Shown here piece by piece: positions 5,001 through 61,819 of a DNA stretch of 64,000 nucleotides (position 1 is the stretch's first letter; each line of letters opens with the position of its first letter). This DNA is from a virus (lineage: Duplodnaviria > Caudoviricetes), in the IMG/VR virus record IMGVR_UViG_3300043438_000518, positions 32,001-96,000 of that record. The stretch is one strand, 5' to 3'. The position numbers were made by a program, and so were the translations under genes. A model generated the notes under the pieces. It was not told where the DNA came from and did no database searches. It saw only the letters and a list, made by a program, of their open reading frames with translations.

Positions 5001-8000
5001 CTGGAGAGCTGAGTGAAACAGCTCACGAACATTTAAGTGATACACAAAAATTTTCTTTAGCGACTAGTTTACAAAATCACAAAAAACAAAAAGATCAGTC
5101 TCCTAGTGAGTTAACTGACTTAGAAGAGTTTAGAAACAGAACTCTGTTTAATATATACAAAAGTAGTTTAGAAGGTCTTACTCCTGAAAATCAGGTAGCA
5201 AAGATTATAGAGATGAACAAAGTTGCTTTGGGCATAGCTGTAGATACTCCAGCGGTTAATAACTTCTCTGCTAATCCTACTAACACTGCTGTTCCCGTAA
5301 CTCCTGCACCTGTAGTAAACATACCAGGTCAATTAGACGAAGTAGACAGAGAGGTTTACACTGAGTATGCTAATTACTTGGCTGAGTTTAATCAACAGTT
5401 AGCAGACTTCGATCCAACTGCTGATGAGACTCGTACAATGGTAGCTGAGTTTAACAAGAATCTTTTTGACAGTCTTTTATCCTTAGATTCTTTAAACGCA
5501 GTTAGGTCTGCTTTGTTGGCTGTTTATCCTGAGAATGTATTAGGAATTGAAGCTATGTATGAAGCAGCTAAGCAGGGTAATATAAACTTAGATTCAATAC
5601 AATTTAGCCCAAAGAAGAAAGAAAGATTTATTGCTCGTTTAAAAACTCTTATGGGTGAAGCAGACTCTACTCCTGAAACTCCTGTAGTTGAAACACCAAC
5701 TAATGAAGTATTAGAAGAAGCACCAGAGATTGCAGAAGATGGAGAAAATAATCAAACAGATAATTATGACTCAGCACAAAAGTCAACTGAATTAAGTCTG
5801 ACAAATCTTCTTAAAGGAACTAAAGGATTAGAACTTCAGTTAATATCTGTAACAAAAGAAGACGTATCCCTTAACGATCCAGCAGTAAATCTTGCTTATA
5901 GCATTATGGAGTTTTACTCTGAAGCAGAGCGTTTAGGAAAGAGTCTTGCTATGAAAGTTAGAATTCAAAGCATGATGGGTATTTATGAGTTCGTACTGCC
6001 TGCAGGATCTGTAGAAAGATTAAACGAATTAAAACAACTTAAGTCTTTGTCTCCTGAAGAGAAAATAGAGTTAAGAGATTTATTATCTGTAAACAATCGT
6101 CCTATTCATAATGAAGGAATGTTGTCTTTCTTAGAAGAGAATCCTTCTGAAATAGGTACTGGAGTAGGTACTGCGTTTGTAAACTCTGACAATAACTTGC
6201 TTAAGTTTACAGCTAAAGGAAAACCATCTACTGCTAAGACTGCTTTTGTTTTCATTCCTGCTATAAAGAAAACAGGAATACAATCAGAGAAAGAGATTAG
6301 AGAAAGAGTTGGCAGAGGAGAAATTTTAGTATCACCAATTTCAGGAATTGTATCAGGAGTGGATAAAACTTCTCCCTTAACTAACGCAGTAGGTGAAAAC
6401 ATTTATGTACACACAGGACCTGCGACTACTATTAAAGGGGCACAAAAAGTCTATACACTTAAACCTGGGGTTGTGTACTTACAGAAGGAAGATGCTCGTT
6501 ATCAGTACACAGGTATAAACATTCCTACTAACGGAAGTGATATTCAAATTCTTGTTAATGCTTTTAACAATGGTACTCTTCCTCAAAATATAGATGAGTC
6601 TATCAGACAAGATGCTAGTCTATTCTTAAACTACTTAAACAGACAGATAAACTCTACCAAAGTAGGCAAGGAAGAAACTTTAAAGATTAGATTCTTTAAA
6701 GGGGCTAATCTATTCCTCTCAACTACTAATGATAATAAACTTATAGTAAAGTATCAAGTAGAAGGTAAGGATGGTAAAAAGTATTTAAAGCCATCTAAGA
6801 ACCAAGACGAAGACTTGCTTAAGATTGGACAATCTTCTTACAAATTAGTAGATGCAAGATTCTTAGAAGATAACAAGCCTTACACTGCTTTAGTAGTAGA
6901 TGCTAAAGGTAAAATAAGCACTAAGCAATTTAACTCTTACTCTGACTTTATTAAGAGTCCTGAGTTTGGAGCAAACTACGTAAGAGAAGAGAATAGAACA
7001 TTCTCTTTTAGTCCTGAGCTTGAGTCTCTGAATACATCTTCAGTTGCTGTGGATGAAATAGATACAACTCCTATTGCACCTATTAGTGAAGTACCGACTA
7101 CTCCTACTCAACCTGCAGATGCTAGAGCTGATATAGAAAAAAGAACTACAAAAATAATATCTTCTGAAATTGTAGAAAAAGGAAATAGAAAAGGTCAAAC
7201 AAGAATCGTAAGTCAGACTAATTCTATTACAGATTTAGAGGGTACACTAGTAAGTGTCACAGAGTATGAAGCAAAAGTGGGAGATACTACAGTTGGACTT
7301 GGAGGTAAATCCATGACTCTTAAACAATTTAAAGAAGAGTTTCCATTAGACGAGGATTATGTAGGAATATTTGAAGGATTAGATGATGACTCAATTATTA
7401 CAGTAATAAAAGTAAAAAGAGTTCCTACTAGTTCAAGATTTAATAGTGTAGTAAGTATTTATACTGTCCAGTATGGTAAAATGGATGCAGGCATTAAAAA
7501 TGATGATGTAAAATATAACGCAGAACTGGCTGCTTTAGAACAGCCTACTCCCCAACCTGCAAAAGGACCTAAAAGACTTAGTAGAAGACCTACACTTTAT
7601 AAGGATCCATCAGAAGACTCTCTTATTGATCCAGACTTTTTCTTTAGAGCAAAAGCTTTAAGCAACTCTATCACAGGTAGGCAGAATACTTTAGCAAAAG
7701 CTTGGGTAGCTAATCATCCTATATTTAAAAATACTCCTTTCATCTTTGATGAGACTATCAGTCATCCTGAAGCTTATGCTGTATGGTCAAAGGCAGGTAT
7801 CTTCTTATACGAAGGAGCTAACTATGCAGAAGCGTATCATGAAGCATGGCATGAATTCTCTCAGTTGTATTTAACTCCTGAACAGAAAGCTGCTTTGTAT
7901 GCAGAAGCAAGAGAATTGTATGGAGATTTAACGTTTGTACAACTAGAAGAAAGATTAGCAGACGACTTCCGTGCTTACGCTTTAAGCGAAGGCAAAGAGT

Positions 8001-11000
8001 TTCCTGCTCTTATCCAACAAGCAAGAAAGAGTAAATCTATCTTTAAAGAGATCTGGGACTTTATCTCTAATCTATTTTTAAATAAGAAAACAGTTGACCA
8101 CTACTTCAGTCGTTTGTACAAAGGAAATCTTAATGGTTTTAAACGTAGAGAGTCTAATCAATACTTTAAACAACTCTACTCTGGTAAGTACACTTACAAT
8201 GACGCTGAAGGAGTAAGTCATGCACTTTCTTATGTAGACTCTAAAAAGTACCTAGACGACTTAGACAGTCTTTATGTAGCTACTACTAGTGCTATGTCTA
8301 AAGACAAAGGAGTTACGTTTGTAAACATACTAGCTAATCCTAAGCAAGCAAATCTAGTCTACTCTATGATGGCTAAGCGATTAGACTCTGAATATACTCA
8401 GTTGTTAGAATCATACGAACAAACTGATAATGTAGAATACGTTCCACGTATTGATGCTATTGTAGACCTTTTAGAAAACTTTGAAGCTACAGTAAAATTC
8501 CATAAGCAAAACTCTTTCTTATTTGAAGATAAAGTTAGAAAGGCACTTTTAAATAATCAGATAGTTGAACAAGAAAGTGTCAATGCTGAGTTTGCTTCGT
8601 ATGAAGCTAGCGTAAACGAAATGTCCCAGAAGCAGTTGGCTTCACAAACTTTAATTAGTGCTCTTAGAACGCTTCCTAGATATGAAAACGGGGTACAAGT
8701 ATTTCATCCTGTATTTGGAACTCCTCTGTTGAGCGACTTTAGTTCTAACTGGAATATCCTACAACGCAGGTTGTCAGGAGTAAACTCTTACTCAGAACTA
8801 TTTAGTAGGGTAGAAAACATTGCTGAAGTGTATCCTCAATTTACTGAGTTTCTATCTTATTTGCCTACACCAGAAGAAGACTTAACTTTTACTAGTGACT
8901 TAAACTTTAAGAATGAATTCTATCGTATCTTTAGTATGCCTTACATTGAAGGCTACACTACAGACATCAAGAGAGATGAAGATGGAAATATTGAAGACGT
9001 AAGAGTATTCCAAGCACAATCATTAGATGCTCAAAACATTAGGCGTTCTTTTGACTCAGCTTTTTCTCTTAACCCTTCTGAGTATTCTTTGACTAATGCA
9101 GAGACAGGTACAGCATACTTAAATACAACAAAGTACTTTAATACTTTCCCTGGTATCCCTGCAGTACCTATTGACGAAGAAGAATTTGAAGACTACAATC
9201 GTTCTTTGTATAATATGTTAACTCCATTAGGATTTAACTTAAGTCCTAACTCTATTGAGTTGTTTGTTAAGGAAGATCCAACTGTACAGTCTGCTAGAGT
9301 ATCTTTAATTTATAATAAACTTAAATCTTTATCTCAGGTACAGGCTTACATTGCAACTCCTTTAGCAAGTATTTCTAGTTCTCATATGATTGAAGATAAA
9401 GGATCTAAGATTAAAGTAGAAGGAGAAAATACTAGTATATCAAATATTATACAATATGAGGTAGAGGCTAACCCTCAGTATGTTAATGACATGAGGTATA
9501 ATGCAGTACAGAAACAAATCTGGTCTGTAAACCAACATACATTAATGACTAGAGTTCTTGGAGTATTAAACGATGAGGTATCTTATCCTACATTAGAAGA
9601 TGTTTACAGAGAACTTCCTCATCTAGATCCCACAAATAATCCCAACACAATAGGTTCTTTTGTATTGTCTTACTTGTTTAATACAGCAGGTAACCGAATT
9701 ACAGATAAGATGCAGAACCAACAAGTCTACAGAAAAGTAGAACTTGGTAACTTGTTAGGAATTAAAGATAGAGGAGAAGGCGAAAAGACAATTGACTCTA
9801 ATGAAGCTAAGAAACACTATGCTGATATTTTAGGATTAGTTAAGTCAGGTGTAGAAGAGATTAACCGTCTTAGTGGTAAGTCAACTACTAGGGGATTAAT
9901 CATGGATCTTCGCTTAAGAAAGTTCTTGGGCTTTAACAACTCTACTAACCAAGTAGATGAGTTCATTGCTTATGGGCCAGCGCAAGTTCCTTACAGTTTG
10001 TTTGTAAGTAGAATTCTTCCTCTTATTAAGTCTGAAGTTGAAGTTACTCTTAAGGATTCTGATAAATATAAAATTAGTCCTTTAGACGGAGATGGTTCTC
10101 CTAAACTTACATACTTCCATAAAATCTTTACTCCTGAACAACGTACTGCTTTATACGCAGCATACACATCAGCAGACTCTACAAAGTCTTTAGAGGACGT
10201 ATTTAAAGAAATGCCTGAGGCACAAGCAGTATTTAATAAGTTTCAAGAATACATTGCAAGTAATGTAAAAGGATCAGAAGCTATCTTAGGTACGACTTAT
10301 CCTGTAGATAAAGTAGATTTATTTAAGTATCATTTCTTCTCTTTTGTTTCTCGTATTGAACAACATAAGATATTCTTTAACCATCCTTACTACTACAAGA
10401 ATCCTAAAGATATCGAAAAGCGTTTGAGTATGTGGAATGCTTTTGGTTCTTATGCTATAATTGATCAACAGAATATAGATTACTTATTATCTGATAGGTC
10501 TGGTTTAAGTATGTATTCTCACAGAGATGCTTTCCATGCACATGCAGGTCAAGTAGGAATTAAAATAAATGCTAATAGAGCTGCAGTAGATCAAATCTCT
10601 TACCTCGTTTTAAAGGATGAGCCAATTAAATCCCCTACAGCAAAAGCAAGTAAATTCTACGGTAAGTACAAAGATGCTTATACAAATGATCCTAAATCAG
10701 AAAAACAAAATGCTGCAGCTTTCTGTACATTAGATTTCTATCGTAAGTTCTATTCTTTGTCTACAGGTATTACTCTTCCAATGAAGCAAGAGTTTGATCG
10801 TCAAGATAAGATCTATAAAAAATACCTAGAGTTACAAAGAGCAGACGAGTTTACTAGAGACCAGCTCAGTAAGGAATTAGAGGAAGAATTAAATAAAGGT
10901 CCTTTCTATAAGTTTACTATTAAGAAACTACAGTACGCAGGTCATAACAAAATAGAAAGTGGAGAGTCAGTTCCTGTAGGTCACAAGTATTCTATGAAGC

Positions 11001-14000
11001 CTATTCTTCCTTCTGAGATTATAGGTGATCCTAAACTCGCTTCTATTCTTCAGAAACTTCATGCTTCTTCTGCAGAGTATGCAGTATTTGAATCAGGCAC
11101 TAAGTTGTCTGAGACTGTTAAGCCTGTAAGTTTATTTAATGCTAAAGGAGAAGTACAAGACAAAGCAGTACCTGTAGGATTGATTGATCTTAAGAACCTT
11201 AAAGAGCAGGTATTAATTGAAAACAAAGAAGACTTTAACAACATCTTCAGTACTCAGTTCCGTAAACTTGTATATAAGGATATCACTACTCCTGACGGAG
11301 AAGCTTTGTATGAGTCTTACAAATCTATCATTGAGAATCTTACTAACTTTGATAAACTTAATTTCTTAGAACAGTTAGACGACAAAGAGAAACTTGTAGA
11401 GTTCTTGATTCGTGAGATTTCTAAAAAGAATGCAGCAGAGTCTACTAAAGATCTTCTTAGATTAAAAGAAGATGGTACTTTAACTCACAGCCTTGATAGT
11501 ATGATTGATCGTACTGTTATGGAGAGTGCAGTTGTATCTAGTGTTAAGAATCAAATCATTAAACAAAAGCTTCCTGGTGCACAGAGAGTACAGTATCCTG
11601 TATCTTTGATTAGACCTTCAAGGAAGTTAAGATTCTATGATATAGTAGATGGAAAGATTACTAAGGCCGAAGCTATGGTCTCTTTCTCAAAAGGATATTA
11701 CCCTTTGCTTAATCTTCTTTCACCTGTAGACAAACAACCTATTGGTCAACTAGACAATGAGGGTAATGTAATAAACCCACATACTGCGCTTACTCGTTTG
11801 AATGAAGCACTTGCTAATCCTAAGTTTAGAAGTCGTTATGCTAATCAACTTACCATGGAAGCTATTCGTATTCCTGGAGAGAAGCATCGTTCAATGGAGA
11901 ACTACGAGATAGTAGAATTCTTACCCGAAGAAAGTGGAGAAATTATTTTAGTTCCTGACGAGATTGTAATTAAGTCTGGTGGTGACTTTGATATTGATAA
12001 GTTGTTCTGTTATGATCCTGTATTGAATGCAGACGGAAGTTTTACATACGGACCTGAGATTACCTCACAAGAAGCTTTTGAGTTAAAGAAAGATCTTATA
12101 AATAGATTACAAGAAAATAAAGAATTGTTTAGAGAGTTCTACCAGGATAAACAAGACCTTATTCAAGACTTACAAGATATCCTTGTTAGTCGTGGTATTG
12201 CTGCAGACACTAGAGTATCTGCTTTGTATAAAGAACTTCGTTCCTACAAGTATGTAAACGAACAAGAACTTGTAGACGAAGGTGCTATTACCGAGACAGA
12301 TCAAGAAAGATTAAGGAAGTGGGCAGCAGGAGAAGTATCTACTGAAAAGAAAGACCTCTCTAAAGACATTAAAAATAGGATTAAGGTACTCAGAGCCACC
12401 TTATCAGAGATATCGGATGAAGGACTCTCTCAAGAAATCATAAACATTAATACTAGACTTAGTGTTATTGCAAAAGAAGGAAGAGATATCAAGAACGAAT
12501 TAAAGAATCTTAGAGGTCGCTTTACAAATAGACTACTTCTTAACATCTCTAATCGTTTATCTCAGCCTGAAATCTTCGAAGACTTAATTGCCCCTAACGA
12601 CATTGCTAAAGTTACAGAAGCAGTAGAGTTGTTTGGTAGTTCATCAGATATTACTACAGCGTCTCTTACTAACCTTGTCAGTCCTTTATACCAGTTGTAT
12701 GTATTCTCTTTGAATACTTATAAGACTTCTTTGGGTACAGATGCTAAGAATAACGTATTCCACGCATTGTTACAAAGAACTACCTTCTACAGAGAAGATA
12801 AGAACGGTAACAGAAAGTTTCTTTTAGATGCAAATAGAACTGTAGATGGATTCTTAAACTTTAGTGGTGTATTTAACATAGACGGAGATAAGATATCGAA
12901 CATATCAGGTGAGATGATTAGTGCTCACGTAGATATTGAAAAGAACGATGGTATTGCTAAAATTGGACTTAACAACGTAATCACTCCTGTAGTTAACTAT
13001 GCTAACATGGCAGGTGTTAGATTCTTTGATATGGTTAAGCTAATTAACTTAACTGACGGAATTAGAAAACAATCTTCTATTATACGATACTCTAGAGGAA
13101 AGTCTATAGAGGAAGTTTTAGATGTTATGTACAAGAATGCTTCTGAAGGAAGTGTAGTTAAGTCTTTGATTGATACTTCTAAGAATGAATTTGGAAGAGT
13201 TATTCGTGGCAAACTGATTAACAATGTATTTAACCAAATGCTAAAAAACACTACATCAGAAACTTCTAAGGAGTTAATGCTTAGTGTTGAAGACCCTTTA
13301 CAGGATCTTAGAAGATTTGCACAGTTCCTTGAGCTAGAAGACCAAACAAGAGACTTAGCTACTATTTCATTGGCTACAGATTATGATACATTCTCTCCTC
13401 AAAACTTTGAATCATTCAGATCTAACATCTTAAGTTTGATTCCTTACATAAAAGAAGGTGGAGAGAAAGCAGGTATCTTTAACAAGAAAGGTCTGGACGA
13501 TATCATAAACAACTCAATCATTGCTCCTTTCCAAGTACAACAAGATGTTTTAGATAAGTTTGTTCAAGTATTTCCTATCTCTGCTAATCCTAAGATTACA
13601 AATACTATTCTCAGACAGTTTGCAGTAGTCCAGAAGATAAATAGAAAACTAGACTATGATAAGTTCTCCCGTACGTTTAAGAATGATTTGCTTTATGCTT
13701 TGTACATTAATAACGTACCACAGGTGGTTCAGTTTGAAGCTTACTTAGATAAAACAAGTCCTGCAAACTTAGCAACTATGCTTACTAACCTTAAGAGTAG
13801 ACTGCGTAATAGAGGAATTGCTGCTGATAATATTATGTTTGATATTATGAGTGCAACTACAGATGTTGACTCTAAGTATATTAGAACAGGTATCTTGGAT
13901 ACAGACTTAGACTATTCAGTTGATATGTATAAGGAAGAGTTTGAGAGAGGATTCAATTGGTCTCACTCAGAGCTAAATCCTGACAACGCTTTAGACTCTG

Positions 14001-15700
14001 AACTTATCGGAGATATGCAAGCTTTCTTTAAGGCATTTGCTTACGCTGGTATTATGGGAAGTCAATTAAATAAGAAGTTTGATTCTTACTTGCCTTTGAT
14101 TCCTGAGTCTATCTACACCCTTCCTATGACTTCTGTTATTGAAAACTTTAGTAGGGAGTTAGATGCTTCAGAAAGTGCAGTTGTAGAAAGAGAGTATACT
14201 CCTGAAAAGGTTACTAAGTCTAATTTACCTGATAATGGTTTCTTTGTATTTGGTTCTAATGATAGAGGTGTACATGGACTAGGAGCAGCAAAAGATGCAG
14301 TTAAAAACTTTGGAGCAGTTAAAGGTCAGGCAACAGGAAAACAAGGTCAAGCATTTGCAGTAAGAACAAAAATGTATCAGAACGGTAAACTTACTAAGTA
14401 TAATGACTTAACTGAGGACAATAAGAAAGTAATGGATAGAATGACTGTAGAAGATCTTAATGCATTAAGAATGGAGGCTATAGATAATCCTGACAATAAG
14501 TATTATGTTACAGTAATAGGAACTAAGTTAGCAGGAAGAAGTGTTGAACAGATGAAAGATTTCTTTAGTAGAATGAACAGTAAGGTTGGTATTCCTGATA
14601 ATATAATTTTGCCTGAAGAATTTGAAGTAAGAACAGAATCTGTTAGTGTTCCTTCTGAGTTTAATTTCTTTAAAAACTTCTTAACTCGATTTACTGAGAA
14701 TCATCCAGAGTTCCGTAATGCAGAAGCGCCTAAGACTATGACCTACTACAAAGACTATCTTTTGTCTAGGGATAACATTGTAGCTCAGTATGAAGCTTCT
14801 ATAGAGAGTATTACTAAGAGTACTAATGCCGGTTCTAAACAGATGATTTTAGGAACAAAAGTTAAAGATGGGATATACGTAAATCAATCTGCTTTAACTA
14901 AAGAAGAACAATTAGAGTTATTTGACTACTTAAAACCTTTCTTAGAGGAACAGGCAGCTAAAACTAATAAAGGGAAGTCCGCAAGTAAGATGATTGGTTT
15001 AGGATTAAGGTGGGATTATAAATCGAACAATCCTGGAAAACAAGCAATGAATATTCCAGATGTTATTAATCCTGCAAATAAGACTAAGTATGGGTATTAT
15101 GATTCTTCTATAAATAACCTACCTCTGGCTCCTATTACTAGTCGTTTCAGGGAGTTGATGCAGAAAGCTTCAGGAGTAGATATGACTAACTATGATGGAG
15201 CAATTATTAATTTATACGAGGAAACTACTTTTATTAGTTTACATAATGACGTAGATGAGAGTAGATCTGCTATTGGTTATCCTGTTATAGGAGTCAATCT
15301 TGGAGGTACAGGAAACTTCTCTATTGAACCCAGAAATAGTAGCCCTGAACAAATTAATCTTAAGGCAGGTACTGCTTACATTTTTGGAGTTGATGGTGTA
15401 AACAGAGAAGTTTGGCATAGAACATTGCCTAAGCCTCAAGACAGTTTCTTACCTGAATTAACCACCAACATAGATGGTAAGACTTACGAACCTGGTTCTT
15501 ATAGAGTTACGATAACTATGAGAAGAGTAATGCCTTTGGAAGAAGGAATGAATGCTACTCCTTTTATAGAAGAGACTCAATTGCCTAGTCCTGTATCCCA
15601 ACAGTTAACTTTAGAGTTACCAGTAGACAACAGTTTTGCACTGAAAGATTCCTTCAACAGTCTACGTGAGATCAATAACAACCTAAGTAAAAACTGTTGA
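2009..15700 (+). CDS. Virion-packaged DNA-dependent RNA polymerase polyprotein (crAss-like) with zincin, macro-like and AlkB accessory domains
   Basis: 4563 aa; RIP...GGDFDIDK catalytic motif (DFDID at 11984-11998) as in phi14:2 gp66; HEAWH zincin motif at 7838-7852; C-terminal HxD...H...RxxxxxR 2OG-Fe(II) motif. Confidence 0.88.
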   Translation: MPQDPIIALLQNQGLDPFTQSKPVSRLQAASISTSAAEISRAAAAPFQAQLTIGKGVNDILAGGAKAEMLSPYENVSSSMLKGIEIPQISLDKGIQQEIKVSADVLSRTLREGSLEESQAALKELRDKYNNISKSVLSNKEKENLRQAYAGLVEQVNQINTFKLAKQQTDSFFSENALEDREKGLKDFNANSRLPLSLKSKQTKNSDIINSLADLESNRIGSRLYNEEDLSTFKSTYVDTDKDLYAGMEMQYNYAVKQSVDEKINDYQKQIQDLDSQIKQSYDQGQKNALAMQKAGVVKELNYANNLSQKLKPYTNEDTYLKNFYPEEYTKKKDRQKQEVYRNEMLAEGDQGSWSETLYRSAQSIGSNFTKQISGAAYFFGNKELGYRLKSAAESIAPPTYFVGKDLNKNSKIDDSEITRDIHGNRVTMSQVRWIDKSGESHWNLWAPVEQTLPILTDVLTTIAISKGLGAVGRGAGLTYGRMGAAAGLGEAANASFVKNWAPRISTMGIVSATTFPRFYAEERSNFKNSDDAFKVATMRAAVEGLTESIVPDVNMFSGKIAYGALDPAFAKLGKLDPASLSRLTVKRDVLLGLLPKGAISPAKAALLMAPAALRRTLTGASQEAIEELGSLVGNYVVDQYASNQNFEVEETNQLTGEAFLDTFVEGFIPSLFISGGSTLLAKGAMKKERLDQARWNIANNPEKYKQLIANQVQNQKITKDEGLKRTVAIDRLAKQLDVIPEIQNIKSLTTLLDDKEAQYNFFNNVLFQEDLLTVDTTQLSEEQVEQHKESLAKVSKDILTTKNLADKYAGLEENDKKAIISKLFDKQAQAATSEDATLSSIMFTAEQTKQMMVTAPVNDPRYEFINEQYKNFQSKVDANIRTRVENFASRLENTPEQVTLLELQMAQDTFLPALERLDALDKGMQVENSPMAPEIGPMPENTPELMQAIKDELASRKIISAEDFNREVSQNLKNPETKQVQEAQLSVAELSEEELATGELSETAHEHLSDTQKFSLATSLQNHKKQKDQSPSELTDLEEFRNRTLFNIYKSSLEGLTPENQVAKIIEMNKVALGIAVDTPAVNNFSANPTNTAVPVTPAPVVNIPGQLDEVDREVYTEYANYLAEFNQQLADFDPTADETRTMVAEFNKNLFDSLLSLDSLNAVRSALLAVYPENVLGIEAMYEAAKQGNINLDSIQFSPKKKERFIARLKTLMGEADSTPETPVVETPTNEVLEEAPEIAEDGENNQTDNYDSAQKSTELSLTNLLKGTKGLELQLISVTKEDVSLNDPAVNLAYSIMEFYSEAERLGKSLAMKVRIQSMMGIYEFVLPAGSVERLNELKQLKSLSPEEKIELRDLLSVNNRPIHNEGMLSFLEENPSEIGTGVGTAFVNSDNNLLKFTAKGKPSTAKTAFVFIPAIKKTGIQSEKEIRERVGRGEILVSPISGIVSGVDKTSPLTNAVGENIYVHTGPATTIKGAQKVYTLKPGVVYLQKEDARYQYTGINIPTNGSDIQILVNAFNNGTLPQNIDESIRQDASLFLNYLNRQINSTKVGKEETLKIRFFKGANLFLSTTNDNKLIVKYQVEGKDGKKYLKPSKNQDEDLLKIGQSSYKLVDARFLEDNKPYTALVVDAKGKISTKQFNSYSDFIKSPEFGANYVREENRTFSFSPELESLNTSSVAVDEIDTTPIAPISEVPTTPTQPADARADIEKRTTKIISSEIVEKGNRKGQTRIVSQTNSITDLEGTLVSVTEYEAKVGDTTVGLGGKSMTLKQFKEEFPLDEDYVGIFEGLDDDSIITVIKVKRVPTSSRFNSVVSIYTVQYGKMDAGIKNDDVKYNAELAALEQPTPQPAKGPKRLSRRPTLYKDPSEDSLIDPDFFFRAKALSNSITGRQNTLAKAWVANHPIFKNTPFIFDETISHPEAYAVWSKAGIFLYEGANYAEAYHEAWHEFSQLYLTPEQKAALYAEARELYGDLTFVQLEERLADDFRAYALSEGKEFPALIQQARKSKSIFKEIWDFISNLFLNKKTVDHYFSRLYKGNLNGFKRRESNQYFKQLYSGKYTYNDAEGVSHALSYVDSKKYLDDLDSLYVATTSAMSKDKGVTFVNILANPKQANLVYSMMAKRLDSEYTQLLESYEQTDNVEYVPRIDAIVDLLENFEATVKFHKQNSFLFEDKVRKALLNNQIVEQESVNAEFASYEASVNEMSQKQLASQTLISALRTLPRYENGVQVFHPVFGTPLLSDFSSNWNILQRRLSGVNSYSELFSRVENIAEVYPQFTEFLSYLPTPEEDLTFTSDLNFKNEFYRIFSMPYIEGYTTDIKRDEDGNIEDVRVFQAQSLDAQNIRRSFDSAFSLNPSEYSLTNAETGTAYLNTTKYFNTFPGIPAVPIDEEEFEDYNRSLYNMLTPLGFNLSPNSIELFVKEDPTVQSARVSLIYNKLKSLSQVQAYIATPLASISSSHMIEDKGSKIKVEGENTSISNIIQYEVEANPQYVNDMRYNAVQKQIWSVNQHTLMTRVLGVLNDEVSYPTLEDVYRELPHLDPTNNPNTIGSFVLSYLFNTAGNRITDKMQNQQVYRKVELGNLLGIKDRGEGEKTIDSNEAKKHYADILGLVKSGVEEINRLSGKSTTRGLIMDLRLRKFLGFNNSTNQVDEFIAYGPAQVPYSLFVSRILPLIKSEVEVTLKDSDKYKISPLDGDGSPKLTYFHKIFTPEQRTALYAAYTSADSTKSLEDVFKEMPEAQAVFNKFQEYIASNVKGSEAILGTTYPVDKVDLFKYHFFSFVSRIEQHKIFFNHPYYYKNPKDIEKRLSMWNAFGSYAIIDQQNIDYLLSDRSGLSMYSHRDAFHAHAGQVGIKINANRAAVDQISYLVLKDEPIKSPTAKASKFYGKYKDAYTNDPKSEKQNAAAFCTLDFYRKFYSLSTGITLPMKQEFDRQDKIYKKYLELQRADEFTRDQLSKELEEELNKGPFYKFTIKKLQYAGHNKIESGESVPVGHKYSMKPILPSEIIGDPKLASILQKLHASSAEYAVFESGTKLSETVKPVSLFNAKGEVQDKAVPVGLIDLKNLKEQVLIENKEDFNNIFSTQFRKLVYKDITTPDGEALYESYKSIIENLTNFDKLNFLEQLDDKEKLVEFLIREISKKNAAESTKDLLRLKEDGTLTHSLDSMIDRTVMESAVVSSVKNQIIKQKLPGAQRVQYPVSLIRPSRKLRFYDIVDGKITKAEAMVSFSKGYYPLLNLLSPVDKQPIGQLDNEGNVINPHTALTRLNEALANPKFRSRYANQLTMEAIRIPGEKHRSMENYEIVEFLPEESGEIILVPDEIVIKSGGDFDIDKLFCYDPVLNADGSFTYGPEITSQEAFELKKDLINRLQENKELFREFYQDKQDLIQDLQDILVSRGIAADTRVSALYKELRSYKYVNEQELVDEGAITETDQERLRKWAAGEVSTEKKDLSKDIKNRIKVLRATLSEISDEGLSQEIININTRLSVIAKEGRDIKNELKNLRGRFTNRLLLNISNRLSQPEIFEDLIAPNDIAKVTEAVELFGSSSDITTASLTNLVSPLYQLYVFSLNTYKTSLGTDAKNNVFHALLQRTTFYREDKNGNRKFLLDANRTVDGFLNFSGVFNIDGDKISNISGEMISAHVDIEKNDGIAKIGLNNVITPVVNYANMAGVRFFDMVKLINLTDGIRKQSSIIRYSRGKSIEEVLDVMYKNASEGSVVKSLIDTSKNEFGRVIRGKLINNVFNQMLKNTTSETSKELMLSVEDPLQDLRRFAQFLELEDQTRDLATISLATDYDTFSPQNFESFRSNILSLIPYIKEGGEKAGIFNKKGLDDIINNSIIAPFQVQQDVLDKFVQVFPISANPKITNTILRQFAVVQKINRKLDYDKFSRTFKNDLLYALYINNVPQVVQFEAYLDKTSPANLATMLTNLKSRLRNRGIAADNIMFDIMSATTDVDSKYIRTGILDTDLDYSVDMYKEEFERGFNWSHSELNPDNALDSELIGDMQAFFKAFAYAGIMGSQLNKKFDSYLPLIPESIYTLPMTSVIENFSRELDASESAVVEREYTPEKVTKSNLPDNGFFVFGSNDRGVHGLGAAKDAVKNFGAVKGQATGKQGQAFAVRTKMYQNGKLTKYNDLTEDNKKVMDRMTVEDLNALRMEAIDNPDNKYYVTVIGTKLAGRSVEQMKDFFSRMNSKVGIPDNIILPEEFEVRTESVSVPSEFNFFKNFLTRFTENHPEFRNAEAPKTMTYYKDYLLSRDNIVAQYEASIESITKSTNAGSKQMILGTKVKDGIYVNQSALTKEEQLELFDYLKPFLEEQAAKTNKGKSASKMIGLGLRWDYKSNNPGKQAMNIPDVINPANKTKYGYYDSSINNLPLAPITSRFRELMQKASGVDMTNYDGAIINLYEETTFISLHNDVDESRSAIGYPVIGVNLGGTGNFSIEPRNSSPEQINLKAGTAYIFGVDGVNREVWHRTLPKPQDSFLPELTTNIDGKTYEPGSYRVTITMRRVMPLEEGMNATPFIEETQLPSPVSQQLTLELPVDNSFALKDSFNSLREINNNLSKNC

Positions 15701-54986: not shown

Positions 54987-55182
54987 AAAAAACAACTTCT
55001 TGCATGCTCACCATGCTTTTAGATTTTACTGGACATAGTTTACTGTCCACCTGTTGACGTGCACATCAGAGCAGGGTCCATCACAGTTCACTTTGGGTCA
55101 TGTAACTCATTTGGGTAATTACTCCCAAGAGCCAAAGTATCTTTCAACGGTGCTAATCCGCCCTCTGTAAGAAGTTGTTTTT
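54987..55182 (-). ncRNA. Putative structured RNA immediately downstream of tRNA-Leu
   Basis: ~17-bp closing inverted repeat (AAAAACAACTTCTTGCA / TGTAAGAAGTTGTTTTT) enclosing several hairpins; no ORF. Confidence 0.5.
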
Positions 55183-55271
55183 TGGTTCTATTGATGGGAA
55201 TCGAACCCATACTGACATTGCTGTCAACAGGATTTTAAGTCCTGCGTGTCTACCTATTCCACCACAATAGA
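55183..55271 (-). tRNA. tRNA-Leu(TAA)
   Basis: Cloverleaf: TCTATTG/CAATAGA acceptor stem, CAGGA-CTTAAAA-TCCTG anticodon arm, long variable arm, TTCGATT loop, encoded CCA. Confidence 0.92.
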
Positions 55272-57333: not shown

Positions 57334-57408
57334 TGGTAGCCCCTGGGTGAATCGAACACACCATCTCTAGGATGAAATCCTATTGTCCTACCATTAGACG
57401 AAAGGGCC
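57334..57408 (-). tRNA. tRNA-Glu(TTC)
   Basis: GGCCCTT/AGGGGCT acceptor stem, GTC/GAC D-stem, TAGG-ATTTCAT-CCTA anticodon arm, TTCGATT loop, encoded CCA. Confidence 0.85.
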
Positions 57409-58537: not shown

Positions 58538-58829
58538 ATAGATTTTTTGCAAGCACTAAAATTTCTACTAAATCATCAGTACTTACACGAGGGTTAACAT
58601 CTGTACCGTCTGGAGTGATAGTCAGATTACCATCATAATAAACATACCAGTTACCATCTTTGTCTATGACAGCAACTTCAGCAGTTGTTACACCCTGATC
58701 ACAGTAATGACCTGTACCAAATCTTACGCTTACATAAACTTTGTTAGCAAACGTAAGACAAAAACCTTCGTCAATAAAGTCTTTAGAGAATCCACGAGTA
58801 GTCTCTTTAATAGTAATGTAGTTATTCAT
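58536..58829 (-). CDS. Hypothetical phage protein
   Basis: GFxLTFxN..VSVxFG.GHYC..AEVAV pattern. Confidence 0.65.
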   Translation of the reverse strand: MNNYITIKETTRGFSKDFIDEGFCLTFANKVYVSVRFGTGHYCDQGVTTAEVAVIDKDGNWYVYYDGNLTITPDGTDVNPRVSTDDLVEILVLAKNL

Positions 58830-58856
58830 ATCTGTATTTATCTGTATTTTTTAAAG

Positions 58857-59267
58857 TTATCCGCAATAAGGATCTTCTTCATCCATCCAATTATCAGTGT
58901 TGAACATCATATTAAATTGTTCTGCTTGCTCTATAAGAGCTTCAAGGTCAAAAATACTGAAGCCACTAATTTGCTTAGCATAGTCATTAACCTTAATGTA
59001 GATAGCATTAAGTCTTTCAAGTTCCAGGAGATTATCCTTAACCATTTGTTCTTTTGTCCTACTCATAGTTTGGTCTATTACATAACAGGCAAGATCAGCA
59101 AGAATTTTTGCTTTATCTTCGGTCAGTTCAAGTTCAGTCATAAAGAAACTAATAGCTTGATAATACCCAAGAGTATTAACAATTTGCTTAGCAGTGTCTT
59201 TAAGTTCATCATTCATACCATCTAACATGATAGTATGTTCATCGGTTAGTTTAAATGTATTTTCCAT
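58857..59267 (-). CDS. Hypothetical acidic protein
   Basis: 136-aa ORF, first gene downstream of the ribozyme. Confidence 0.6.
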   Translation of the reverse strand: MENTFKLTDEHTIMLDGMNDELKDTAKQIVNTLGYYQAISFFMTELELTEDKAKILADLACYVIDQTMSRTKEQMVKDNLLELERLNAIYIKVNDYAKQISGFSIFDLEALIEQAEQFNMMFNTDNWMDEEDPYCG

Positions 59268-59323
59268 TTCTATATCTGTTTTAGTTTAGTTTATACTAAT
59301 TGGTATTATACCATAAGGTATAA

Positions 59324-59438
59324 TTTACTTCCATCTGCACTCAGTTGTAACAAGGCTACATGTTACCTTGCTTAGGGATTAATGTTTTCATTACAACTGC
59401 TCACCCTTTGGAAGTGAGTTGTGGTGCATTAAAGTAAA
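59324..59438 (-). ncRNA. Twister ribozyme (P1 type with extended P5), copy 1
   Basis: P1 UUUACUU/AAGUAAA; UAA; P2 UGCA/UGCA; P4 CUCAC/GUGAG with loop UUCCAAAGG; P5 CAGUUGUAA/UUACAACUG; GA-UGG pairs with loop CCA. Confidence 0.82.
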
Positions 59439-59445
59439 GGGGTTG

Positions 59446-59616
59446 TTACACCCCATATAGAGAATTATGAATCTTATATAGAACACCATTATCTTCAAAG
59501 ACCATCCAATACTGATAATTAACATCAAGTCTTGTTTGTCCTTTAAATTCAGGATTCTTTAAGTTCATGTAATCAGACGAACTGATTTCCTTTGCAATGT
59601 TTAATAGATTTTCCAT
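59446..59616 (-). CDS. Small hypothetical protein (56 aa) between the two ribozymes
   Basis: MENLLNIAKEISS...; ATG at 59616 preceded by an A-rich leader, preferred over the TTG at 59736. Confidence 0.55.
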   Translation of the reverse strand: MENLLNIAKEISSSDYMNLKNPEFKGQTRLDVNYQYWMVFEDNGVLYKIHNSLYGV

Positions 59617-60047
59617 ATGTATATTGTTTGTTTTAATTTCAAAATAAAAAAGCAGTTTAAACACTTGCTTAGGTGTAGATACAATAGCACTAATATTAAT
59701 AATACAAAAATTATTAACATTACCCCTTAGATTCAATAAGACAACCGATTTGACTTACGTCCAGTAGTCTCTCCCCTAATAGGCCGTTACAAAGTAACAT
59801 TTGTCTGCTATTACAGTAACACAGTAAGTGTCACTTTGTAGAGCTGTATCTGTAGCTCAACAGAAACCTGGTTCTTAAATTATAATCCCTATGAACCAGG
59901 AAGTTCAGGACATTATCTACAAGAGGCAGATACTCAACAGTTATTTCGTGCTGTAACACAAGTTATACTGATAAACTTAAGCTGGTCTTTTATGTAAAAT
60001 GGCTTACTTGCTTAAGGTAAGTTAAAAACTGCCTGCTTACGCTCCGG

Positions 60048-60216
60048 CTACTCCACTCTGCATTCAATTGTAATAAAAAGCCAATAACACAAAAATGTTA
60101 TCCGTTTGGGGCAACTAATTGTTCACCTATAAATAGGTTTAGTGTTTATCCATGCTTTATATCTCGTTACTACAATTGCCGGTCCTTGTGAAACCGGTTA
60201 TGATGCATTAAAGTAA
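60048..60216 (-). ncRNA. Twister ribozyme (P1 type with extended P5), copy 2
   Basis: P1 UUACUU/GAGUAG; UAA; P2 UGCA/UGCA; P4 CCGGU/ACCGG with loop UUCACAAGG; P5 CAAUUGUA/UACAAUUG; GA-GUG pairs with loop CAC. Confidence 0.82.
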
Positions 60217-60496
60217 GACAGTTTCACTTCGCATTATATCTGTCTTGAACCCCGCTTCTAGGGTTTTATTAACCAAGCAAAACTTTCGCTTAGCATTAGA
60301 TAACGTCTCTGATACAAGAGACGAATAAGAATAACAGATAACAACTTATAAGAGATTATATAAGAGGTTATCTGTTAGTAGGGTTAGTTAAGATTTAACT
60401 TTTTAGTCATATCACAACCTAAAAGGCATTAAAATCCACTATTTTGGACAGTTAGAAAGAAGATAGAGAGGGAAGAATCCCTTATTTCTAATGTAA

Positions 60497-60564
60497 AAAA
60501 GTTAAACAAAACATGATTTGTCTCCGATTTTCCCGGGTTTAGACTTTCAAAAGTTAAACAAAAC
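60497..60564. repeat. 16-bp direct repeat AAAAGTTAAACAAAAC (two copies)
   Basis: Exact copies at 60497-60512 and 60549-60564. Confidence 0.75.
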
Positions 60565-60744
60565 CTATTTTACCTACATTTCATGACATTTCTATGACAA
60601 TTGATAGATTGATGTCTTGATTTGTCGATTGATAGTTTGATGTGTACTTCCCCGAAAGTCAGGAGGCAATCAGGCGTTAGCATAAAACACTACCATGCCG
60701 CAGGCATACCATTTTAACAGAGGCAATTTGCGACCTTACTAACG

Positions 60745-60767
60745 AAAAAGGGGGACAGAGTCCCCCC
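60745..60767 (-). terminator. Intrinsic terminator
   Basis: GGGGGAC-AGA-GTCCCCC with a U-tract on the minus strand, after the ORF ending at 60779. Confidence 0.75.
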
Positions 60768-60778
60768 GAAGGCAATCA

Positions 60779-61078
60779 TTAGCCGATGCTTACGTCCCAG
60801 AAGCGAGGGTAGTCAACACCGTTTACGGTAGTCACGTTCTTGAAGGTAGCGTAGATGCTTCCGCCAAATTGCTTCGCTTGAAGTAGGTCGCCAAACTTGT
60901 AGTCGGAACTGCTACCGATAAGGATTTCCAACTTGCTGTCTTTGTAGGAGACAGTTGCGAAGGTGAAGTTGTTACGTACTCTGAACGAACGCATCGAGAA
61001 GATGTACTCTGTTTCAGGTACGAAAGAAATTGTTGGGGCTGCGCCAGCAGCATCTGTTGTGTTAGTTTTGGTTGTCAT
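60779..61078 (-). CDS. Hypothetical protein (probable first/early gene)
   Basis: 99 aa; ACAGAT-ATG leader, own terminator, visibly higher GC than the rest of the window. Confidence 0.65.
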   Translation of the reverse strand: MTTKTNTTDAAGAAPTISFVPETEYIFSMRSFRVRNNFTFATVSYKDSKLEILIGSSSDYKFGDLLQAKQFGGSIYATFKNVTTVNGVDYPRFWDVSIG

Positions 61079-61209
61079 ATCTGTATGTATTAAAGGTTTC
61101 GGTTGTCAGTCTACCACGGGGGTAGAGGCAAGTGCCGAAGGCATACGGGGATAGTGAAGGTGGACACCCCCACCCTCTCATAGATATAAAGTGGGGGGGT
61201 TCTAAAATT

Positions 61210-61238
61210 TTGAAAAAAATTTTTTTAGTTTACCTTTG
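61210..61238 (+). promoter_or_regulatory. Bacteroidota sigma-A-type promoter
   Basis: TTG-N18-TACCTTTG, 5 nt before the ATG at 61244. Confidence 0.55.
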
Positions 61239-61243
61239 AACCC

Positions 61244-61819
61244 ATGAAAAAACTAGTCTTTATCTTATCTTTCTTTCTTTCCTTACAAGGGTTCTCTCAG
61301 AGGGATTCTGTTTATGTTAAGACCTCTATCTATTCTTGTGTGTATTCAGAGGTGTTACAACAGCCTAAGCGAGTTTGGTACACTGTTCAATGCCCTCTAG
61401 GTTCTTATCCTAGAAAAGGAATGGACTTCTACACTAACGATTCAGTAAGGACTTCAGATGGTAAGGACTATGAGGCTAATGTATGGGATAAAGGACATTG
61501 TGCTCCAGCAGCTGACTTTAACTGCGATAGAGATAGACTATGGGCTACCTTCTCTTACCTTAATTGTGTTCTTCAACACGAGAGATTAAACAGAGGTGCT
61601 TGGAGACTTCTAGAAGTCAGAGAAAGAGAACTAGCTAAGTCTCAGGTTGTCGAGGTAGAGATTAAAATGGTCTACTCTAAGAGCAGTTTAAAATTGCCAA
61701 CAGGAGCTACAGTCCCTGATGGATTCTTAAAGACTATCAAGTACGGCAAAGTAAAAGAAGTTTACTATTTCAAGAACGAAGATCCAGGTACCACCGATTA
61801 CTTAAGGTTTAGGAAGTAA
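61244..61819 (+). CDS. Secreted DNA/RNA non-specific endonuclease (NucA/Endonuclease_NS family)
   Basis: Signal peptide; DKGHCAPA, TFSYLN..Q...LNRGAW..LE and VP..FxK motifs. Confidence 0.88.
   Translation: MKKLVFILSFFLSLQGFSQRDSVYVKTSIYSCVYSEVLQQPKRVWYTVQCPLGSYPRKGMDFYTNDSVRTSDGKDYEANVWDKGHCAPAADFNCDRDRLWATFSYLNCVLQHERLNRGAWRLLEVRERELAKSQVVEVEIKMVYSKSSLKLPTGATVPDGFLKTIKYGKVKEVYYFKNEDPGTTDYLRFRK

What the first reader, a model, noticed from the sequence alone, without database searches (positions are those of the whole stretch)
59324..60216. Tandem twister ribozymes bracket a ~780-nt RNA: possible excised or circular phage RNA
Seen: two minus-strand elements share the twister core (P1, U^AA, P2, L4 U-NNN-AA-GG, GA-NNN). 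They show compensatory changes in P4 (CUCAC/GUGAG vs CCGGU/ACCGG), P5 (CAGUUG/CAACUG vs CAAUUG/CAAUUG) and the pseudoknot (CCA/UGG vs CAC/GUG). Both carry long P5 insertions and GG in place of the usual GC at the second pseudoknot. Predicted cuts at 60210/60209 and 59431/59430 release a 779-nt RNA with 5'-OH and 2',3'-cyclic phosphate ends. Established: these are the ends RtcB ligates. The fragment contains a structured region and a 56-aa ORF. Inference: ribozyme-programmed processing of the earliest transcript, giving a stable or circular RNA and a 5'-OH early mRNA.
Basis: partly seen in the sequence, partly recalled or inferred. Interest (0 to 1): 0.85.

Follow-up and report, generated by a model that had tools for sequence, protein, structure and literature searches.

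The report
Phage twister-like ribozymes bracketing an RNA cassette
Two copies of a phage-borne variant of the twister self-cutting RNA, one that RNA catalogues miss, flank a 779-base stretch holding a conserved folded RNA and a tiny gene; they probably cut it out of a phage message, but nothing found here shows that the piece becomes a circle.

Summary
Two minus-strand elements have the twister layout: A at 60216-60048 (cut U60210^A60209) and B at 59438-59324 (cut U59431^A59430).

They belong to a large family. A 27-nt core pattern hit at least 117 viral contigs. P1, P4, P5 and pseudoknot T1 all covary.

Rfam misses the family. There is no hit in the window even at E<=10. A short-P5 member gets twister-P1 as best hit at only 18.8 bits against a cut-off of 67.2. 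I call it a twister variant: long P5 insert, invariant GG in L4, five-pair P2.

The 779-nt interval holds:
- the body of twister A;
- a roughly 310-nt structured RNA conserved in 14 viral loci;
- a real 56-aa gene.

Close relatives vary this layout. Some have the RNA between two twisters without the gene. One has a single twister and no cassette.

The most likely role is self-cleavage that releases a linear RNA and a 5'-OH downstream mRNA. Circularisation is unsupported: no junction in RNA contigs and no RtcB in the phage record. It is not excluded.

This scan has noted the same family before on other DNA.

The parts
60048..60216 (-). Twister-like ribozyme A. The predicted cut is between U60210 and A60209. 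Its P5 stem carries an insert of about 92 nt (60167-60076).
   Evidence: Read. CM R1 gives 87.7 bits, E 4.9e-23, over 60046-60218; A was in the training set. The MFE fold recovers P1/P2/P4/P5.
59324..59438 (-). Twister-like ribozyme B. The predicted cut is between U59431 and A59430. Its P5 insert is about 40 nt.
   Evidence: Read. CM R1 gives 103.1 bits, E 1.6e-27; B was in the training set. The MFE fold has z = -4.1.
59431..60209 (-). The predicted 779-nt product between the two cuts.
   Evidence: Arithmetic from the two cut sites. This unit is present in the window and absent from L062, which has one twister between the same flanks.
59665..59975 (-). Conserved structured ncRNA module of unknown family. 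In the closest relatives the conserved block extends over 60047-59651.
   Evidence: Found in 14 viral loci by a 22-base pattern. RNAalifold on 11 of them predicts 57 pairs, 25 with compensatory change. L043 and L070 are 95-97% identical over 60075-59650. No Rfam match at E<=10. Contigs of 4 RNA runs cover parts of it.
59641..59670 (-). Hairpin (59670-59651) followed by a U-run (59650-59641), which looks like a terminator. In L043, L070 and L052 the same hairpin abuts P1 of the next twister instead of a U-run.
   Evidence: Read and the alignments. The hairpin shows G-C to A-U changes in L052 and L128. The terminator scan does not list it, because it has too few G-C pairs.
59446..59616 (-). A 56-aa gene. 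The 213 bases 59650-59438, which hold it, are absent from L043 and L070.
   Evidence: ORF list. tblastn gives 50% identity over 50 aa in L036, L044 and L066, each upstream of a twister. No Pfam or PHROG family matches.
59439..59454 (-). G+C-rich hairpin that abuts P1 of twister B. It is P0-like or terminator-like.
   Evidence: Listed by the terminator scan.
60215..60266 (-). Leader module in front of twister A: two hairpins, the second (60246-60240 with 60221-60215) abutting P1.
   Evidence: Read. The stretch from about 60266 to about 60200 recurs at 80-89% identity in L011, L037, L064, L073, L084 and L095. In L064, L073 and L084 the match runs on into a twister; in L037 the matching stretch lies downstream of that locus's twister.
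58857..59267 (-). First gene (136 aa) of the downstream message, which would start at A59430 with a 5'-OH.
   Evidence: ORF list. Homologues at 38-46% identity follow twisters in L056, L062, L070 and L108.

Best explanation
A and B are active members of a phage-borne subclass of the twister self-cleaving ribozyme.

Shown:
- Each has P1, the U^AA site, a five-pair P2, P4 with an L4 loop that forms the T1 pseudoknot, and the G-A step after P2'.
- Each carries a long, variable insert in a conserved 11-pair P5.

Inferred from twister chemistry: as the minus-strand message is made, each element cuts itself between U and A. That would give three RNAs:
1. A short leader.
2. A linear 779-nt RNA with a 5'-OH and a 2',3'-cyclic phosphate. 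It starts with the folded body of twister A and carries the conserved ~310-nt structured RNA and the 56-aa gene.
3. The downstream small-gene message, which starts with a 5'-OH and the folded body of twister B.

Inferred purpose: to uncouple the fates of neighbouring RNA modules and give them ends that 5'-end-dependent decay does not recognise.

Because all copies share about 45 nt of core, they also serve as joints at which cassettes are gained and lost by recombination.
For: **Family size and a matched control**
- The same skeleton with any non-G as the last L4 base gave 22 hits. None of the 22 had a complementary P4 or a T1-complementary 3' half, and none had a CM match.

**The 3' half was not in the search pattern**
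- Of 111 unique instances, 107 have a T1-complementary triplet after the GA step. The pair types are CCC/GGG 69, CCA/UGG 21, CAC/GUG 16 and CUC/GAG 1.
- In 107 of 111 the fifth P2 pair is C-G or U-A.

**Covariation on 68 sequences**
- 91.9% of cells are paired, against 78.2% in shuffles.
- 23 of 30 pairs change on both sides, and 0 of 500 shuffles reach any of the five measures.
- With partners slid by 1-3 columns, only 31-52% of cells pair.
- All 5 P4 pairs, all 6 P1 pairs and 9 of the 11 P5 pairs covary.

**Resemblance to twister**
- The best Rfam family for a short member is twister-P1. The match is full length and aligns P1, UAA, P2 and GA-GGG-P1'.
- These features match the twister description in PMC6154101 (passages read): the U-A cut, the double pseudoknot, a conserved G at the bottom of P2, and an optional P5.

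**Copies lie along one message**
- All copies sit on one strand in all 26 multi-copy loci.
- 19 of 100 loci are multi-copy, and 7 of 26.

**Cargo**
- In 20 of 29 adjacent pairs the cargo has no ATG ORF above 40 aa.

**Cassette behaviour**
- L062 keeps the window's flanks with one twister.
- L043 and L070 have the ncRNA between twisters without the gene.
Against: - No cleavage was observed.
- Rfam's own twister models do not reach their thresholds.
- The second pseudoknot, T2, could not be tested. The GG of L4 and the C-A after P2 never vary, because my pattern fixed them, and no non-GG relative exists.
- Whether a twister with GG and a five-pair P2 is active is unknown.
- A2 was selected for an exact P2'/T1' match, so those helices are 100% paired there by construction. 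Only one search tests them.
- Both window copies were in the CM's training set.
- The RNA data are contigs. They show neither ends nor strand, and DNA carry-over cannot be excluded.
- The ncRNA has no twister within the fetched DNA in 6 of the 14 loci (L121, L122, L123, L124, L126, L127). Several of these are short fragments or carry the ncRNA at the fragment's edge. In L128 the only twister lies about 1.7 kb upstream.
Confidence: 0.62

Rival explanations
1. The excised 779-nt RNA is closed into a circle, either by host RtcB or by the twister's own reverse reaction. That would give a natural counterpart of the engineered twister-flanked circular RNAs: a stable circular phage RNA carrying the ncRNA and the small gene.
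For: - The two ribozymes have the same polarity, and twister cleavage leaves the ends RtcB joins (established chemistry).
- The 3' tail of the product is B's P1 5' strand. It pairs 6 of 6 with A's P1 3' strand, so the nick would sit in a re-formed twister A.
- The same cross-fit of 5 or more pairs holds in 10 of 29 adjacent pairs.
- RtcB rang in the Bacteroides control genome. Seven of the 13 cellular MAG hits are Bacteroidota, which is only a weak host hint.
Against: - Contigs of 4 RNA runs from 4 studies show no joint between 59431 and 60209. Contigs drop rare forms, so this does not exclude one.
- No RtcB or RNA-ligase domain was found in the phage record. The search rang nowhere, so it says nothing.
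- The cross-fit of P1 is expected anyway, because copies in this clade share the same P1 sequence, single-copy loci such as L062 included.
- 19 of 29 pairs do not cross-fit.
- The long-range stem closing the ncRNA in the single-sequence fold has no comparative support. The competing local hairpin has.
Confidence: 0.13
2. The twister copies matter mainly at the DNA level, as shared recombination joints that let phages swap RNA and gene cassettes. Cleavage would be incidental, weak or lost in some copies.
For: - The cut-to-cut unit is an exact insertion or deletion between the window and L062.
- The P5 inserts, the ncRNA and the 56-aa gene each occur in different combinations in L043, L070, L052, L036 and L081.
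- Low-scoring, probably decayed copies (21-47 bits) lie beside intact ones.
Against: - A pure DNA joint would not need compensatory changes that keep P1, P4, P5 and T1 paired.
- It would not need every copy to lie on the transcribed strand of its array; all 26 multi-copy loci do.
- This reading complements the best explanation rather than excluding it.
Confidence: 0.15
3. The elements are a twister-shaped structured RNA that does not cleave, for example a protein-binding or stabilising 5' structure.
For: - The score is far below Rfam's cut-off.
- The canonical second-pseudoknot bases are altered: GG is invariant.
- No experimental data exist.
Against: The parts kept invariant are those twister catalysis needs. 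Per PMC6154101 these are the U-A-A site, the G-A step right after P2', and the three-pair T1 next to P1'. They sit in the canonical order with covarying helices.
Confidence: 0.1

Closest known systems
Twister self-cleaving ribozyme, type P1 with optional P5 (Rfam RF03160; described in review PMC6154101, passages read)
   Same: - Same order of elements: P1, U^AA, P2, P4 with L4, and then P2', G-A, a three-base T1 strand and P1'.
- T1 covaries.
- The cut site is U-A.
- P5 sits between P4' and P2'.
- It is the best Rfam family for a short member.
   Different: - It scores 18.8 bits against a 67.2 cut-off, and the inner part does not align to the model.
- P5 is present in every member seen here, with a conserved 11-pair base and inserts that put the 3' half 45-345 nt from the cut. 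The review says P5 occurs in 1% of annotated twisters.
- L4 ends in an invariant GG.
- P2 has a fifth covarying pair, C-G or U-A.
- My inference: that fifth pair replaces one T2 pair.
- The family is almost confined to viral contigs: at least 117, against 13 MAG contigs among 185,579 species genomes.
Engineered twister-flanked circular RNA expression (the 'Tornado' design; recalled, not read here) and retrozyme or viroid-like RNAs with repeated hammerheads (PMC4918200 and PMC7761336, search listings only)
   Same: Two self-cleaving ribozymes of one polarity flank a cargo. The cargo's ends are the ones RtcB joins and can be held together by a re-formed ribozyme helix.
   Different: No circle, junction, ligase or replication function was found here. 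The cargo is an ncRNA module plus a gene inside a DNA phage operon.
Hammerhead and twister ribozymes near phage genes in bacteria, proposed to process polycistronic mRNAs (review PMC6765202, passages read)
   Same: They sit between genes in phage-type operons, with a proposed role in splitting messages into parts of different stability.
   Different: That review calls the role undetermined. It does not describe this variant, its P5 inserts, or arrays with non-coding cargo.

Membership tests
Twister ribozyme (Rfam RF03160/RF03154/RF02684) | Match to the curated covariance model at or above its gathering score | tested here: not met
   There is no hit in the window at gathering or at E<=10 and none in the whole record. 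There is none in 10 loci that hold short-P5 members. L015:261-325 scores 18.8 bits, E 0.071, against a cut-off of 67.2.
Twister ribozyme | Helices P1, P2 and P4 around a U-A cut site, kept by compensatory change | tested here: met
   P1 has 6 of 6 pairs and P4 5 of 5 pairs with changes on both sides, and P4 is 99.4% paired. P2 is invariant except for its fifth pair, which is C-G in 80, U-A in 27 and other in 4 of 111.
Twister ribozyme | Pseudoknot T1 between loop L4 and the strand next to P1' | tested here: met
   107 of 111 unique instances are complementary, with four pair combinations. The 3' strand was not part of the search pattern.
Twister ribozyme | Pseudoknot T2 between the end of L4 and the junction after P2 | tested here: inconclusive
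   L4 ends in GG in all members, and no non-GG relative exists (0 real among 22 hits). The junction bases C-A were fixed by my pattern, so covariation is impossible. One C-G pair could remain; that is inference.
Twister ribozyme | Conserved G at the bottom of P2 and A after the scissile phosphate | tested here: met
   G60058 with A60209 and G59335 with A59430 are present. The feature is named in PMC6154101. Invariance across the family is by construction of my searches.
Twister ribozyme | Site-specific self-cleavage | not testable with these tools
   This needs in-vitro transcription or end-specific RNA sequencing.
Ribozyme-bounded circular RNA | A junction that joins the two cut ends | tested here: inconclusive
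   No such joint appears in contigs of runs X1, X4, X6 and X8. Contigs cannot show absence, and raw reads were not available.
Ribozyme-bounded circular RNA | A 3'-phosphate RNA ligase on hand | tested here: not met
   PF01139 and PF09414 are absent from the 104-kb phage record, which is 88% complete. The host is unknown, so a host enzyme is not excluded.

The most novel reading that the evidence does not exclude
The two twisters cut out a unit whose 3' tail re-forms helix P1 of the upstream twister. The nick then lies in an intact twister active site and is sealed, by the ribozyme's reverse reaction or by host RtcB, into a circular phage RNA that carries a conserved ncRNA and a small gene. The same cut-to-cut unit is the piece gained or lost between related phages. 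Twister-bounded cassettes could therefore be a mobile RNA-module system in freshwater phages.
Probability: 0.12. Interest if true: 0.9.

Novelty: new variant of a known kind. Interest (0 to 1): 0.66.

Why it matters
What bacterial and phage twisters are for is still open; review PMC6765202 says so. This work adds a large, phage-confined twister subclass that the standard models miss. Its members lie in one-strand arrays and usually bracket non-coding cargo, here a conserved structured RNA. That gives concrete, testable units: defined cut sites, defined products and natural with/without-cassette relatives. These can be used to ask whether ribozyme cuts set RNA stability, release functional ncRNAs or make circles. 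It also shows that ribozyme counts in viromes based on Rfam thresholds are too low.

Tried and rejected
- **Rfam as a membership test.** No twister hit at usable thresholds. Only a sub-threshold hit on a short member.
- **Annotated phage genomes.** blastn of 58800-61300 found nothing.
- **T2 covariation.** The non-GG scan gave only chance matches, so T2 stays untested.
- **Sigma-70 promoter scan.** 10 sites against 8.5 expected, which is uninformative. I could not place a transcription start, so 'earliest transcript' is untested.
- **Closing stem of the ncRNA.** The long-range stem in the single-sequence fold was rejected. The local 3' hairpin is the one with compensatory changes.
- **RNA runs.**
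  - 23 RNA runs hold 0.10-0.24 of the sampled words, and none holds half.
  - In the four runs laid, contigs cover parts of the ncRNA and twister cores with other P5 inserts.
  - No contig spans the stretch, and there is no cover of 59430-59645. These are relatives and contigs, so this says nothing on expression of the gene, on RNA ends or on circles.
- **Other ribozyme classes beside the ncRNA in relatives.** None found.
- **RNA_lig_T4_1 search.** It rang nowhere, controls included, so it is void.
- **Literature.** Four searches found no description of this variant, of P5 cargo or of phage twister arrays. Subscription papers and supplements were not visible, Roth et al. 2014 and its supplement among them.
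- **Rows dropped.**
  - One search leaves out 6 of 125 instances without a 3' motif, 2 of them close to a locus end, and 8 duplicates.
  - A2 uses 68 of 105 unique full elements: those of 150 nt or less, plus window A.
  - One search leaves out L084, L054 and L104 as duplicates of L064, L001 and L007. P1 offsets of weak CM hits there may be off.

Full report
**What is in the sequence**

On the minus strand, two elements have the same layout. The order is P1, U^AA, P2 (UGCAY), CAYAA and a 5-pair P4 closing the loop UUCNNAAGG. After P4 comes a long P5 hairpin, then one A, the P2 partner, G-A, three bases complementary to the NN-containing triplet of the loop (pseudoknot T1), and the P1 partner.

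- Element A runs 60216-60048, with the cut site at U60210^A60209.
- Element B runs 59438-59324, with the cut site at U59431^A59430.
- The cuts would release 779 nt.
- A 27-nt core pattern finds exactly these two places in 64 kb even with three mismatches allowed, against 0.02 expected.
- Each element alone folds into P1/P2/P4/P5 as its minimum-energy structure.

**Is it a twister by the catalogue?**

No.

- Rfam 15 gives no twister hit in the window at gathering scores or at E<=10.
- It gives none in the whole 104-kb virus record.
- It gives none in ten related loci that hold members with short P5.
- Given only 131 bases around the shortest member (L015), the best family is twister-P1. The match is full length and aligns P1, UAA, P2 and GA-GGG-P1'.
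- That match scores 18.8 bits against a cut-off of 67.2, and the inner part is left unaligned.

**Is it a real, conserved RNA?**

Yes, strongly.

*Family size and control*
- The same skeleton with any base but G at the end of the loop gave 22 hits. None of the 22 has a complementary P4 or a T1-complementary 3' half, and none matches the model. That is the chance background.

*The 3' half, which was not searched for*
- There are 125 instances, of which 119 have a 3' motif and 111 are unique.
- In 107 of 111, the three bases after G-A complement the loop triplet. The counts are CCC/GGG 69, CCA/UGG 21, CAC/GUG 16 and CUC/GAG 1.
- In 107 of 111 the fifth P2 pair is C-G or U-A.
- P4 occurs in 26 combinations.

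*Covariation on 68 aligned members (A2; counts)*
- 91.9% of cells pair, against 78.2% after shuffling.
- 23 of 30 pairs change on both sides, and 0 of 500 shuffles reach any measure.
- Sliding the partners by 1-3 columns drops pairing to 31-52%.
- Caveat: A2 was chosen for an exact P2'/T1' match, so only P1, P4 and P5 are free tests there. T1 and the fifth P2 pair rest.

*Covariance model R1*
- It scores B at 103.1 bits and A at 87.7 bits. Both were in the training set.
- It finds no third copy in the window or in the record.

**Why I call it a twister variant**

The review PMC6154101 (passages read) describes these twister features:
- a U-A cut;
- co-linear P1-T1-P2-T2;
- two pseudoknots made by loop L4;
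- a conserved G at the bottom of P2;
- optional stems P0, P3 and P5, found in 21%, 78% and 1% of annotated twisters.

All of these except T2 are visible here, in the right order.

Three things differ from canonical twisters:
- P5 is always present, with a conserved 11-pair base and very variable inserts. The 3' half lies 45-345 nt from the cut.
- L4 ends in an invariant GG.
- P2 has a covarying fifth pair.

My inference, not tested, is that this fifth pair takes the place of one T2 pair, leaving one C-G pair of T2. Cleavage itself was not and could not be tested.

**What lies between the cuts**

1. The body of twister A, with an insert of about 92 nt.
2. A structured RNA.
   - Bases 60075-59650 are 95-97% identical in L043 and L070.
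   - A core of about 310 nt (59975-59665) is found in 14 viral loci.
   - RNAalifold on 11 of them predicts 57 pairs, 25 with compensatory change.
   - No Rfam family matches it.
   - It ends in a hairpin that keeps its pairs through G-C to A-U changes. In the window, that hairpin is followed by a U-run.
3. A 56-aa gene (59616-59446). It has 50%-identical homologues upstream of twisters in three loci and no known family.

So the fragment is a composite of modules, not one non-coding RNA.

**Relatives show that the modules are separable**

- L043 and L070 have the ncRNA running straight into the next twister. The 213 bases that hold the gene are absent.
- L062 is nearly identical to the window upstream of A and downstream of B, but has a single twister. 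The whole cut-to-cut unit is therefore an insertion or deletion with its ends inside the shared twister core.
- The ncRNA lies beside or close to a twister in 8 of the 14 loci and has one on both sides in 3. In L128 the only twister lies about 1.7 kb upstream. In the other 5, none was detected in the DNA fetched. Twisters are therefore not obligatory for it.

**Arrays are typical of the family**

- R1 gave 123 matches in 100 loci and 28 matches in 26 more loci.
- 26 loci hold two or three copies, and in every one all copies are on one strand.
- Cut-to-cut spacings are 164-2466 nt.
- In 20 of 29 adjacent pairs the cargo has no ATG ORF over 40 aa.
- Only 13 contigs among 185,579 species genomes carry the core. 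All are MAG contigs, and 7 are labelled Bacteroidota.
- R1 matches 10 of those 13 at E<=0.01, two of them weakly at 21.7 and 29 bits.

**Circle or not**

*For a circle*
- The polarity is right and the ends are the ones RtcB joins.
- B's P1 5' strand fits A's P1 3' strand 6 of 6, so the nick could sit in a re-formed twister.

*Against, or neutral*
- That fit is expected anyway, because this clade shares one P1 sequence, single-copy loci included.
- 19 of 29 pairs elsewhere do not cross-fit.
- The phage record has no RtcB or RNA-ligase domain (one search is void).
- 23 freshwater, river, lake and estuary RNA runs hold part of the stretch.
- In the four runs laid, contigs cover parts of the ncRNA and twister cores with other inserts, and show no joint between the cut ends.
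- Contigs cannot show ends, strand, level or absence, so the question stays open. I put a circle at about 0.13.

**Context**

- The elements lie in a minus-strand run of small genes without known families. Two tRNAs and a freshwater-1 RNA lie downstream.
- The record has a 4,563-aa ORF and a family-A DNA polymerase.
- I could not place a promoter.

**Novelty**

- Four literature searches and two reviews gave no description of this variant or of phage twister arrays with non-coding cargo.
- Supplements and subscription papers were not visible.
- Earlier notes of this scan describe the same family on other DNA and flag the ncRNA in this genome. This window is therefore a further instance, not a first sighting.

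**Verdict**

It is a new variant of a known ribozyme kind. Processing is likely and circularisation is unproven.

Noticed in passing
window 59665-59975 (-): A ~310-nt structured RNA conserved in 14 viral loci, with 25 compensatory pairs and no Rfam family. Invariant stretches include TTCTGTTGAGC and CAGAT.CAGCTC. Its function is unknown. The scan lists it as a separate finding (e1-6221821).
   Followed up: partly
window 55024-55085 (-), 55186-55271 (-), 57337-57408 (-): A freshwater-1 RNA (84.4 bits) and two tRNAs lie downstream in the same minus-strand region. L062 has the same trio downstream of its twister.
   Followed up: no
window 60215-60266 (-): A two-hairpin leader module in front of twister A recurs at 80-89% identity near twisters in six other loci. 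Its second hairpin abuts P1 like the optional P0 stem of twisters.
   Followed up: partly
window 59272-59323 (-): A conserved stretch right after twister B (hairpin UAUACC-UUAU-GGUAUA, then ACAGAUAU before the ATG) is shared with L062, L007, L104, L077 and L009. It holds a TGnTATAAT-like box.
   Followed up: no
window 60300-60400 (-): An inverted repeat around AACAGATAAC ... GTTATCTGTT and a hairpin CGTCTCT..AGAGACG lie in the conserved upstream block, which is 91-93% identical in L062, L007 and L104. This may be an operator or promoter region.
   Followed up: no
window 2009-15700 (+): A single 4,563-aa ORF. First-stage notes call it a virion RNA polymerase with extra domains. I did not check this.
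   Followed up: no
L005:69-403, L051:885-1274, L128:9067-9294: Related viral contigs carry tmRNA genes and a group I intron.
   Followed up: no
L156 (a 3.68-Mb Cellvibrionaceae MAG contig), L152 and L163: These three MAG contigs hold the core pattern but have no R1 match at E<=0.01. They may be chance matches, decayed copies or copies cut by the locus end.
   Followed up: no
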